Sequence record: OR846541.1
Reading direction: 5' to 3' (one strand)
DNA length: 1,020 bases
From: a phage
Shown: positions 1 through 1,020 of the stretch, piece by piece
Layout: the number at the start of each line of letters is the position of its first letter
Position numbering within the stretch: position 1 is the stretch's first letter
Notes under the pieces: generated by a model
Told to the model about the DNA's origin: nothing
Seen by the model: only the letters and a program-made list of their open reading frames with translations
Database searches by the model: none
Made by a program: the position numbers and the translations under genes

Positions 1-551
1 GCCCTGCACTCTTCGACAGTCCAGCGATGGCGGTTATGGTTTGATTCGATTTCGTCTACCGCGGCCTGACCGATACGGTTAATAAGCTCGACGCGATACG
101 GAACGAGATTTCCGCTTTTGTGCTGGTTGCACACCACGCATTGCTTGTGAATATTGCGTTCATCAAATCGGAGTTGAGGTGCAGCAGCAGTTGTCCGGTA
201 ATGCCCGGCATCCCACTGAGCAGACGTGAGCGTTCCGCACGAGATACATGGTAAGTCGCGGTCTCTTTCTCTGATGAAGGCGTGTACGGCTTGTTGGGCT
301 TGTTTAATCCAGTAACTGCGGGGCTTTAAGGCGAGTTTTTGAATCTTAAGTTTATCTTTCTGTTTCTGCTCCTCTCGTCGTCGTTTCTTCTCTGCTGCTT
401 TTTCTGCTTTTTCGCGCTCTTTGCTTCGTCGTTCGAGTGCTATCTTGGTTCCACACTCTGGAGAGCACCACCACTGATTAGCGAATGCAGGGTGAAACCA
501 TTCCCGACATTCATCGTTTTTACATCGTCTTCGCGCTGGTTTAGCCATCAT
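1..551 (-). CDS. ninG: NinG / Rap recombination-associated structure-specific endonuclease, N-terminal 183 codons; 3' end lies beyond position 1
   Basis: Minus-strand frame opens with tandem ATG ATG at 546..551 and stays open to the window edge (183 codons plus 2 nt, no stop). Translation: [183 protein letters not shown]... This matches my recollection of lambda NinG (204 aa, begins [15 protein letters not shown]). GAGGA Shine-Dalgarno at 557..561, 5 nt upstream of the first ATG. Not in the supplied ORF track because it is edge-truncated. Confidence 0.92.
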
Positions 552-711
552 CTTTTTCCTCGTGCATCGAGCTATTCGAATCGCTCATCAGCTCTGCGCA
601 GCAGTGCTCACACACGTGAACTTCCAGCACATGCAGCTTCTGACCGCAGTTAGCGCACGTTAAAGCCCGCTCGACGCTTTCTTGTTCGTAACTTCGATTT
701 TGGTCAATCAC
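541..711 (-). CDS. ninF: NinF, small Cys-rich protein of unknown function (56 aa), GTG start
   Basis: Minus-strand frame from GTG 709..711 to TAA 541..543 (57 codons including stop). Translation: (V/M)[55 protein letters not shown]. Matches my recollection of lambda NinF in sequence, length (171 nt) and position between ninE and ninG. GAGGA at 719..723, 7 nt upstream of GTG. Missed by the ORF track because of the non-ATG start. Confidence 0.85.
557..561 (-). promoter_or_regulatory. Shine-Dalgarno (GAGGA) for ninG, embedded in the 3' end of ninF
   Basis: Minus-strand GAGGA followed by a 5-nt spacer and the first of two tandem ATGs (549..551). Confidence 0.55.
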
Positions 712-890
712 CTTGTTTTCCTCGCACGTTCTCTAAGCCACCTGATGTCCCACAGGTGAGCCGTGTAATTAAAGGTTTTTACGTCAGATTCTTTGGGGAT
801 TGGCTTGCGTTTATTTCTTGAGCGTTTCGTTGGAAGGTATTTGCAGTTTTCACAGATTATATCGGTGATACTTCGTCGCTGTCGTGCCAT
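708..890 (-). CDS. ninE: NinE, small basic protein of unknown function (60 aa)
   Basis: ORF given in the supplied track and confirmed by my translation: [60 protein letters not shown]. Matches my recollection of lambda NinE (60 aa, 183 nt). AGGAGG Shine-Dalgarno at 895..900, 4 nt upstream of ATG 888..890. Stop TGA 708..710 overlaps the ninF GTG start. Confidence 0.9.
719..723 (-). promoter_or_regulatory. Shine-Dalgarno (GAGGA) for ninF, embedded in the 3' end of ninE
   Basis: Minus-strand GAGGA followed by a 7-nt spacer and GTG at 709..711. Confidence 0.5.
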
Positions 891-894
891 ACGT

Positions 895-900
895 CCTCCT
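895..900 (-). promoter_or_regulatory. Shine-Dalgarno (AGGAGG) for ninE
   Basis: Minus-strand AGGAGG followed by a 4-nt spacer (ACGT) and ATG at 888..890. Confidence 0.6.
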
Positions 901-924
901 TCGTCTCTGGCCGCGGGAAATTAC

Positions 925-1020
925 CTACTGGCGACCGCTCACATCTGATACACCATTGGTGCCAATAAGGTTGATTTGGCCGGAATCGATAATCGTCTTT
1001 GCTTCATGCAACTCTCCCTG
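925..1020 (-). CDS. 3' end of an upstream ORF (C-terminal 31 codons plus TAG); product not identified, sits where ninD/ninC lie in lambda
   Basis: Minus-strand frame open from the window edge to TAG at 925..927: ...[31 protein letters not shown]. Ordinary codon usage, followed by a 34-nt spacer containing the ninE AGGAGG. I do not recognise the peptide. An alternative overlapping frame exists (see findings), so the call is tentative. Confidence 0.35.

What the first reader, a model, noticed from the sequence alone, without database searches (positions are those of the whole stretch)
598..890. NinE and NinF: conserved small Cys-containing proteins with no assigned function
NinF contains C19-x2-C22-x11-C34-x2-C37-C38 (codons within 598..657), a spacing compatible with a small zinc-binding knuckle or ribbon. 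NinE is very basic (roughly 17 R/K in 60 aa) with a single C13-x2-C16 pair (843..854), suggesting nucleic-acid binding. To my knowledge neither has an experimentally established function in lambda despite wide conservation in lambdoid phages, so this is where undescribed biology in the window is most likely to lie. That they act as nucleic-acid-binding accessory factors is inference only.
Basis: partly seen in the sequence, partly recalled or inferred. Interest (0 to 1): 0.45.

Follow-up and report, generated by a model that had tools for sequence, protein, structure and literature searches.

The report
Lambda-type ninE and ninF genes
These are the long-known small ninE and ninF genes of lambda-like phages: NinF probably holds one zinc ion with four conserved cysteines, NinE's cysteine pair is not conserved, and neither has an assigned function, so the finding is correct but ordinary.

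Summary
The window is the minus strand of a lambdoid ninR region. It is 96% identical to Salmonella phage BTP1 and 92.8% to lambda. It holds a ninD remnant, ninE (890..708), ninF (711..541) and the start of ninG.

Both genes are real coding genes: pN/pS is about 0.21 in frame and 1-2 out of frame.

NinF: C19, C22, C34 and C37 are kept in both NinF subfamilies, down to about 45% identity. C38 only substitutes when C37 is Ser, and the histidines vary. A single 4-Cys zinc ribbon or knuckle is well supported by sequence. The AF2 model is weak and no fold matched.

NinE: C13/C16 become Met/Ile/Leu in relatives, including the E. coli K-12 DLP12 NinE. They lie on the hydrophobic face of a predicted helix and are not a metal site. 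NinE is a basic (+12), mostly helical mini-protein from a tiny family.

Context: NinE sits downstream of the Orf/NinB-type gene in every locus mapped. NinE occurs without NinF in about half of phage records. NinF is followed by NinG in only 71 of 122 cases. The two genes recombine independently.

No published function was found, and the genes are non-essential. This is a known unknown, not a new feature.

The parts
857..1007 (-). ninD remnant. The ATG is at 1007..1005. A 23-nt deletion follows and shifts the frame. The NinD-frame remainder 1003..860 has its stop at 859..857, overlapping ninE by 34 nt as in lambda.
   Evidence: DNA alignment with lambda and ST104. Pfam NinD PF17466 matches positions 10-46 of 57 in the start-less frame. 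BTP1 has no ninD CDS at this position.
895..901 (-). Shine-Dalgarno sequence AAGGAGG of ninE, 4 nt upstream of the ATG.
   Evidence: Read directly from the sequence (junction print). Its function is inferred.
708..890 (-). ninE: 60 aa, basic (+12). Predicted helix 8-15, basic linker 17-33, conserved ES-V-TF-Y motif, Arg-rich helix 34-59.
   Evidence: ORF. Pfam NinE 1.5e-44. pN/pS 0.208 in frame against 2.0 and 1.6 out of frame. AF2 pLDDT 70.6, pTM 0.27. Alignments.
843..854 (-). NinE C13-x2-C16, which is not conserved. It lies on the hydrophobic face of the predicted N-terminal helix.
   Evidence: Coordinates. Replaced by M/I/L/V/W and L/M/S/A/H in relatives. The DLP12 NinE has no Cys.
708..711 (-). 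GTGA overlap: the ninF start GTG (711..709) overlaps the ninE stop TGA (710..708).
   Evidence: In 143 of 146 loci the NinF match begins directly after the NinE match.
541..711 (-). ninF: 56 aa, acidic (-8). Variable N-terminus, 4-Cys core at residues 17-41, acidic tail.
   Evidence: ORF. Pfam NinF 1.7e-12. PHROG 672, unknown function. pN/pS 0.215 in frame against about 1 out of frame. AF2 pLDDT 66 overall and about 78-80 for residues 21-40.
598..657 (-). NinF putative zinc site: C19, C22, C34, C37, with C38 as an alternative fourth ligand.
   Evidence: Coordinates. C19, C22 and C34 are invariant in A1. C37 and C38 substitute for each other, and the subfamily-2 core is CAGC-x11-CAEC.
541..561 (-). 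ninF/ninG joint. GAGGA (561..557) and the ATGs (551..549 and 548..546) of ninG lie inside the codons of NinF's acidic tail. The ninF stop TAA is at 543..541.
   Evidence: The same joint precedes different downstream genes in other lambdoids.
1..551 (-). ninG (rap), N-terminal ~183 codons (182 translated from the ATG at 548); it runs off the window.
   Evidence: Pfam NinG PF05766 1.2e-83. Lambda and BTP1 annotation.

Best explanation
Shown. ninE and ninF are two genuine, purifying-selected, start/stop-interlinked mini-genes of the delayed-early ninR operon of lambdoid phages of Enterobacteriaceae. The four NinF cysteines C19, C22, C34 and C37 are conserved across both subfamilies. The NinE cysteine pair is not conserved. 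The two genes are not obligately linked to each other or to NinG.

Inferred from sequence. NinF is a roughly 25-residue single-zinc module (CxxC-x11-CxxC). C38 can serve as the fourth ligand when C37 is Ser. The module is flanked by a variable N-terminus and an acidic tail, and the tail codons also carry the ribosome-binding site and ATG of whichever gene follows. NinE needs no cysteine. It has a short amphipathic helix, a Lys/Arg-rich linker, a conserved P-x-ES-x-V-x-TF-x-Y motif and an Arg-rich C-terminal helix.

Inferred function, low confidence. Both act as dispensable, independently exchangeable accessory factors during lytic growth. NinE most likely binds nucleic acid or an acidic partner electrostatically. 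NinF most likely acts as a zinc-stabilised protein-binding adaptor. Their fixed place between the Orf/NinB recombination mediator and the Rap or RusA junction nucleases makes DNA recombination or repair the likeliest arena.
For: Identity. Coding selection: pN/pS 0.208 (ninE) and 0.215 (ninF) in frame, 1.0-2.0 out of frame. NinF Cys conservation, including the 44-52%-identity Salmonella/Cronobacter subfamily, while H27, H32 and H36 vary. CxxC-x(5-25)-CxxC appears in only 0.95% of shuffles. The weak similarities of NinF are to small zinc-ribbon proteins or modules: DZR, Cas12f TNB, ShdD, a CPxCG zinc finger and LysW. NinE helices and charge. NinE family conservation pattern. Synteny NinB/YbcN ... 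NinE-(NinX)-NinF-[NinG | antirepressor-YbcO-RusA | HNH-RusA]. Curtis et al. 2014 also note this synteny (PMC4118853). Non-essentiality: PMC10695390. Not expressed in a lysogen: PMC12922286. Overlapping signals.
Confidence: 0.55

Rival explanations
1. NinE (basic) and NinF (acidic) form a charge-complementary complex that works with the NinG/Rap nuclease. This develops the first reader's suggestion to model NinE and NinF as pairs with NinG.
For: NinE is followed by NinF in 116 of 128 de-duplicated cases, and NinF is preceded by NinE in 114 of 123. Net charges are +12 and -8. Start and stop codons overlap through ninE-ninF-ninG.
Against: NinE is present in 435 phage records and NinF in only 228. 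DLP12 has ninE-ybcO-rusA without ninF. NinF is followed by NinG in 71 of 122 cases and otherwise by antirepressor, HNH, YbcO/RusA or unknown genes. NinE and NinF identities are uncorrelated (r = -0.25); loci with 100% NinE carry 44-48% NinF. No NinE-NinF or Nin-NinG pair appears in the lambda two-hybrid map, where NinG gave no interactions at all.
Confidence: 0.15
2. NinE binds zinc through C13-x2-C16, for example as a dimer supplying four ligands.
For: A CxxC pair is present in the window, lambda and P22-type proteins.
Against: Both positions are hydrophobic non-Cys residues in the Enterobacter-type clade, the DLP12 NinE and distant representatives. The pair sits inside a predicted helix at i/i+3. 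A CxxC arises in 3.3% of shuffles.
Confidence: 0.03
3. The ORFs are not functional proteins. The DNA is kept for transcription-level signals of the nin region (Rho-dependent terminators, spacing before Q) or merely as linkers for translational coupling.
For: The nin region is deletable and carries terminators (cited in PMC10695390 and PMC5630979). The 3' end of ninF carries the SD and ATG of the next gene. ninD has decayed in this very window.
Against: There is clear purifying selection on the annotated frames only, with variable sites concentrated at third codon positions. The genes are retained in 2160 of 5426 complete E. coli genomes. No Rfam family and no terminator-like site lies on the coding (-) strand in 541..890.
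Confidence: 0.05
4. One or both are host-takeover or counter-defence factors. For example, acidic zinc-bound NinF could block a host DNA-binding or defence protein. That would explain their dispensability on laboratory K-12 hosts and their mosaic exchange.
For: They are non-essential in the laboratory yet under purifying selection. Their neighbours are variable accessory genes such as Dam methyltransferase, antirepressors and homing HNH. One cluster fuses a Lar restriction-alleviation domain to the C-terminal half of NinE. Being small, acidic and zinc-stabilised fits the general style of phage inhibitor proteins (established knowledge, not tested here).
Against: No similarity to any defence-related model above noise; the Cas12f hits are only the zinc ribbon at E about 0.01. 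No literature report was found. The Lar fusion is a single cluster and could be a deletion artefact.
Confidence: 0.17

Closest known systems
Lambda NinE (Nin 60; Pfam PF05322) and lambda NinF (Nin 56; Pfam PF05810)
   Same: Same genes, order, lengths (60 and 56 aa) and overlapping start/stop arrangement. About 93-95% protein identity to lambda.
   Different: ninE starts with ATG here and GTG in lambda. ninD upstream is a frameshifted remnant here, as in BTP1. There are a few substitutions, for example NinF S45 for P and K53 for E.
Small single-zinc ribbon or knuckle proteins (ShdD/VdcD subunit, archaeal CPxCG zinc-finger micro-proteins, LysW, the zinc ribbon of Cas12f/TnpB, Pfam DZR)
   Same: Two CxxC knuckles 11 residues apart in a protein of about 55 residues. 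In LysW, as in NinF, the module is followed by an acidic tail. Weak profile similarity.
   Different: All scores fall below family thresholds (E 0.004-0.5). There is no structural match. The second knuckle of NinF runs into a predicted helix (35-41) rather than a clear beta-hairpin. No functional relationship is implied.
DLP12 prophage NinE (b0548) of E. coli K-12 and the ybcN-ninE-ybcO-rusA module
   Same: Same family (NCBIfam PRK09689 hit; alignment). Same position directly downstream of the Orf-family gene and upstream of a junction nuclease.
   Different: About 35% identity, no cysteines, no ninF, and followed by YbcO/RusA instead of NinF/NinG.
Interlinked gene chain of the lambda ninR region (Kroger and Hobom 1982, cited in PMC10695390)
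   Same: GTGA and ATGATGG overlaps link ninE, ninF and ninG.
   Different: Nothing new. The only addition is that the same ninF 3' joint serves several unrelated downstream genes in other lambdoids.

Membership tests
Pfam NinE (PF05322) | Full-length match above the gathering score | tested here: met
   150.1 bits against a cut-off of 25, residues 1-58 of 58 model positions.
Pfam NinF (PF05810) | Match to the 25-residue core above the gathering score | tested here: met
   47.4 bits against 27.5, residues 18-42. PHROG 672 at 1.1e-34.
Zinc ribbon / zinc knuckle (structural class) | Two CxxC (or equivalent) knuckles giving four ligands, conserved across the family | tested here: met
   C19, C22 and C34 are invariant. 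C37 is kept except where C38 substitutes. The core is CAGC-x11-CAEC in subfamily 2.
Zinc ribbon / zinc knuckle (structural class) | Knuckles on beta-hairpins that bring the four sulfurs together; structural similarity to known ribbons | tested here: inconclusive
Zinc ribbon / zinc knuckle (structural class) | Stoichiometric bound zinc | not testable with these tools
   Needs metal analysis of purified protein.
Pfam DZR / DZR_2 / Cas12f1-like TNB | Score above the gathering threshold | tested here: not met
   16.8-17.7 bits against cut-offs of 26-27. PADLOC Cas12f E = 0.011.
LysW-type amino-group carrier proteins | Significant sequence similarity | tested here: not met
   PDB profile search gave E = 0.53. 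NinF ends in DDG or DDE. The LysW-specific C-terminal attachment residue and lysine/arginine-biosynthesis gene context were recalled from memory and not checked here.
   Replaced by M/I/L/V/W and L/M/S/A/H. The DLP12 NinE has no Cys.
Arginine-rich-motif RNA-binding peptides (lambda N, P22 N, Nun) | Demonstrated RNA hairpin binding by an Arg-rich helix | not tested
   The only link is compositional resemblance of NinE residues 50-60 ([11 protein letters not shown]). No homology test is possible and no RNA target is known.
Translationally interlinked ninR gene chain | Overlapping stop and start codons between successive genes on one strand | tested here: met
   ninE/ninF GTGA overlap. The ninF stop lies 8-11 nt inside ninG, with the SD inside ninF codons. 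Actual coupling was not tested.

The most novel reading that the evidence does not exclude
NinF (a zinc-stabilised acidic mini-protein), NinE (a basic helical mini-protein), or both, are host-directed inhibitors or counter-defence factors. Their targets would be absent from laboratory K-12, which would explain why genes present in about 40% of E. coli genomes and under purifying selection are dispensable in standard assays.
Probability: 0.15. Interest if true: 0.6.

Novelty: already known. Interest (0 to 1): 0.22.

Why it matters
NinE and NinF are among the last unassigned ORFs of phage lambda. ninE-ninF DNA is present in 2160 of 5426 complete E. coli genomes, in up to six places per genome. 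Assigning them a function would close a small, old gap in the best-studied phage.

This analysis does not do that. It narrows the hypotheses:
- For NinF, the four residues to mutate are C19, C22, C34 and C37.
- The NinE cysteines can be ignored.
- An obligate NinE-NinF-NinG complex is unlikely.
- The acidic tail of NinF should be interpreted with care, because it overlaps the next gene's translation signals.

Tried and rejected
- **PDB sequence-profile searches.** NinF gave sub-threshold hits, the best of them zinc-ribbon proteins. NinE gave nothing.
- **PHROGs, NCBIfam and PADLOC.** These returned only 'unknown function' or family names, with no defence-system similarity.
- **Exhaustive profile search for remote NinE relatives.** Only 61 representatives were found. 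All are NinE-like mini-proteins or truncation/fusion products.
- **Third homologue search with the divergent NinF.** It found 15 clusters, all Salmonella or Cronobacter NinF.
- **NinF-NinG linkage and a NinE-NinF co-adapted pair.** Both were rejected by the context counts and by uncorrelated divergence.
- **RNA or regulatory element in 541..890.** There is no Rfam match and no terminator-like site on the coding strand. One promoter-like hexamer pair lies inside ninE (885..856, -), a consensus match only.
- **Literature.** Six full-text searches found no functional study. The search on the word 'NinE' is swamped by the numeral nine. Cheng et al. 1995 on the nin terminators is not held.
- **Species-representative genomes.** NinF hits in non-enteric genomes look like lambda control-DNA contamination, not real distribution.

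Full report
**What is in the window.** All the genes lie on the minus strand. ninE is a 60-aa ORF at 890..708 with an ATG start. ninF is a 56-aa ORF at 711..541 with a GTG start. An ORF that runs off the left end starts at 551 or 548. Pfam assigns these to NinE (PF05322, 150 bits), NinF (PF05810, 47 bits) and NinG (PF05766, 280 bits). The DNA is 96% identical to Salmonella P22-like phage BTP1 and 92.8% identical to lambda 41973-42979. The lambda annotation gives the same order, NinD-NinE-NinF-NinG.

**Check of the observation.** The NinF cysteines C19, C22, C34, C37 and C38 occupy codons within 657..598. The NinE cysteines C13 and C16 lie at 854..843. NinE has 18 K+R and net charge +12. NinF has net charge -8. 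In 200,000 shuffles, a CxxC-x(5-25)-CxxC arrangement arises in 0.95% of NinF permutations. A single CxxC arises in 3.3% of NinE permutations.

**Are they real genes?** I collected 141 ninE and 118 ninF coding sequences from IMG/VR loci, giving 76 and 63 unique sequences. Mean pN/pS is 0.208 for ninE and 0.215 for ninF in the annotated frames. The same DNA read in the other two forward frames gives 1.0-2.0. Variable sites are concentrated at third codon positions. ninE has a strong AAGGAGG 4 nt upstream of its ATG. Both are genuine protein-coding genes under purifying selection. Translation itself was not observed here.

**NinF.**
- The word-indexed search found 103 clusters, all from Enterobacteriaceae. 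Hits labelled with other taxa are discussed below.
- Many of these clusters are truncated or chimeric prophage products.
- Among full-length members, C19, C22 and C34 are invariant.
- C37 is Ser in some proteins that keep C38 (CSDSC, CEASC). C38 is Ile or Val in others that keep C37 (CERCIY, CAECVN).
- A second subfamily from Salmonella and Cronobacter, 44-52% identical, has the core CAGC-x11-CAEC. It lacks the CC doublet and the histidines H27, H32 and H36.
- The conserved ligand set is therefore C19/C22/C34/C37, with C38 as a spare. The histidines are not ligands.
- NinF's weak similarities are to small zinc-ribbon proteins or modules, none of them significant: DZR and Cas12f-TNB (E 0.004-0.008, below threshold), ShdD (0.014), a CPxCG zinc finger (0.12), LysW (0.53) and Cas12f (0.011).
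- A single-zinc ribbon or knuckle is well supported by sequence. Structure does not confirm it, and metal binding is untestable here.

**NinE.**
- The CxxC is not a family feature. The Enterobacter-type clade reads IAMDNLIF where the window reads IICENCKY.
- The DLP12 NinE of E. coli K-12 (b0548) has no cysteine.
- Distant representatives have I, L, V, M or W at position 13 and L, M, S, A or H at position 16.
- AF2 (pLDDT 70.6, pTM 0.27) places both positions in a short helix at 8-15. A Lys/Arg-rich linker and a long Arg-rich helix at 34-59 follow. The cysteines are best read as hydrophobic-face residues.
- Across the family the conserved features are S7, T9, N15, the basic patch at 22-29, P-x-ES-x-V-x-TF-x-Y at 32-42, L46 and the R-x-R pattern at the C-terminus.
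- The family is tiny. An exhaustive HMMER profile search of 1.84 billion representatives found 61 proteins.
- Neither the PDB sequence search nor the fold search found a match.
- Nucleic-acid binding remains an inference from charge and helicity.

**Context.**
- In 160 IMG/VR loci the order is Orf-family gene (NinB or YbcN), then optionally NinC or a Dam methyltransferase, then optionally NinD, then NinE, then optionally NinX, then NinF. After NinF come NinG, or a KilAC/Rha antirepressor plus YbcO plus RusA, or an HNH_3 homing endonuclease plus a DUF968-like protein plus RusA, or unknown genes.
- NinE is followed by NinF in 116 of 128 de-duplicated cases, and NinF is preceded by NinE in 114 of 123. 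NinF is followed directly by NinG in only 71 of 122. These loci are the 80 best hits per query, so they are biased toward close relatives.
- In the GenBank phage collection NinE occurs in 435 records and NinF in 228. About half of NinE-carrying phages, many of them Stx phages, lack NinF, as does the DLP12 prophage.
- Across 146 loci that carry both genes, the identities of NinE and NinF to the window copies are uncorrelated (r = -0.25). Loci whose NinE is 100% identical carry a NinF of only 44-48% identity. A recombination joint therefore sits at the ninE/ninF boundary, and the two are not a co-adapted unit.
- These facts argue against an obligate NinE-NinF-NinG complex.

**Overlapping signals.**
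- ninE and ninF share GTGA at 711..708.
- NinF's last codons are GAG GAA AAA GAT GAT GGC TAA. They contain GAGGA (561..557) and two ATGs (551..549 and 548..546) for ninG.
- In other lambdoids the same ...GAGGAAGAAGA(C/T)GATG... joint precedes unrelated downstream genes, and homology ends just after the ATG.
- This is the 'chain of interlinked genes' described by Kroger and Hobom in 1982 (cited in PMC10695390).
- Part of NinF's acidic tail is therefore constrained at the nucleotide level. Tails encoded differently (TEEDDERCIK, LEEDDE, SNEDIQEQ) are also acidic, so some protein-level preference remains.

**Literature.**
- Full-text searches found no functional study of either protein.
- The lambda two-hybrid map lists NinF-A, NinF-M and NinF-U, and NinE-U. 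Most were seen in a single vector combination, and both proteins are classed as unknown (PMC3224144).
- CRISPRi shows ninF is non-essential once Q is supplied in trans. ninE was not testable, and the whole nin region is deletable (PMC10695390).
- Curtis et al. [quoted passage not shown]
- ninE and ninF are silent in a lysogen (PMC12922286).
- The library lacks most subscription-journal papers, so absence of a report is not proof that none exists.

**Most likely mechanism.**
- Shown: two selected, interlinked mini-genes, a conserved 4-Cys pattern in NinF, and a Cys-independent, basic, helical NinE that is independently exchangeable and non-essential.
- Inferred: NinF is a zinc-stabilised adaptor with flexible termini. 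NinE binds nucleic acid or an acidic surface electrostatically. Both act in lytic growth.
- Their invariant position between the recombination mediator and the junction nucleases makes recombination or repair the first place to look.
- An alternative I rate at about 0.15-0.17 is a host-directed or counter-defence role. That would fit dispensability on K-12 together with purifying selection and presence in 2160 of 5426 complete E. coli genomes.

**Verdict.** The NinF zinc site is likely. The NinE CxxC is not meaningful, and the NinG partnership is unlikely. The feature itself is already known and annotated, and nothing in this window departs from the lambda or P22 paradigm apart from a decayed ninD. 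Interest is low.

Noticed in passing
window 857..1007 (-): ninD is a decayed remnant. Relative to ST104 and lambda, 23 nt are missing right after ATGAA. This removes the first CxxC knuckle and shifts the frame. The start-less remainder still matches Pfam NinD positions 10-46. BTP1 shows the same gap and no ninD CDS.
   Followed up: yes
window 541..561 (-); L045, L032, L035 around 3343..3350: The codons of NinF's acidic tail carry the SD and ATG of whatever gene follows: NinG, a KilAC/Rha antirepressor, an HNH_3 endonuclease or unknown genes. Homology between phages ends just after that ATG, so a mosaic joint lies inside the gene overlap.
   Followed up: partly
L032, L049, L052, L055 (IMG/VR loci): These loci encode a NinE 100% identical to the window's but a NinF only 44-48% identical (Salmonella-type subfamily, CAGC-x11-CAEC). 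In L032 an unknown 78-aa protein and a 159-aa Cys/His-rich protein follow, instead of NinG.
   Followed up: partly
protein P0245 (105 aa): A Lar restriction-alleviation domain (PF14354, just below its cut-off) is fused to the C-terminal half of NinE. It is a single 50% cluster and may be a deletion artefact, or a hint of an anti-restriction neighbourhood.
   Followed up: no
L002-L022 (genome contigs): NinF matches in assemblies of Paenibacillus, Pseudomonas, Shewanella, Oceanobacillus, Bradyrhizobium and others. Three sit on 48.4-48.5 kb contigs with coverage near 1 or 10, and most of the rest on short, low-coverage contigs. This looks like lambda control-DNA contamination, not real host range.
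   Followed up: partly
L194 (NC_042346.1, BTP1): RefSeq gene names are shifted by one. 'ninD' labels the NinE protein, 'ninE' labels NinF, 'ninX' labels NinG, and 'ninF' labels the 74-aa CDS that sits where NinY does in ST104.
   Followed up: no
window 856..885 (-): A sigma-70-like hexamer pair (ACGACA-18-TATAAT, 10 of 12) lies inside the first codons of ninE. It is a consensus match only; 2 such sites occur in the window against 0.6 expected.
   Followed up: no
window 1..551 (-) and lambda NinD (L001 2478..2651): The neighbours are also Cys-rich. The NinG N-terminus reads CKNDEC...CSPEC, and intact NinD reads CxxCxxC...CxxC. Several adjacent gene products of the nin region thus carry CxxC-type Cys clusters.
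   Followed up: no
E. coli genome search with window 541..890: ninE-ninF DNA at 90% identity or more is present in 2160 of 5426 complete E. coli genomes, in up to 6 places per genome. None exceeds about 96.5% identity to the window, so the source is probably not among these E. coli genomes; the best phage matches are Salmonella BTP1/P22-like phages.
   Followed up: partly
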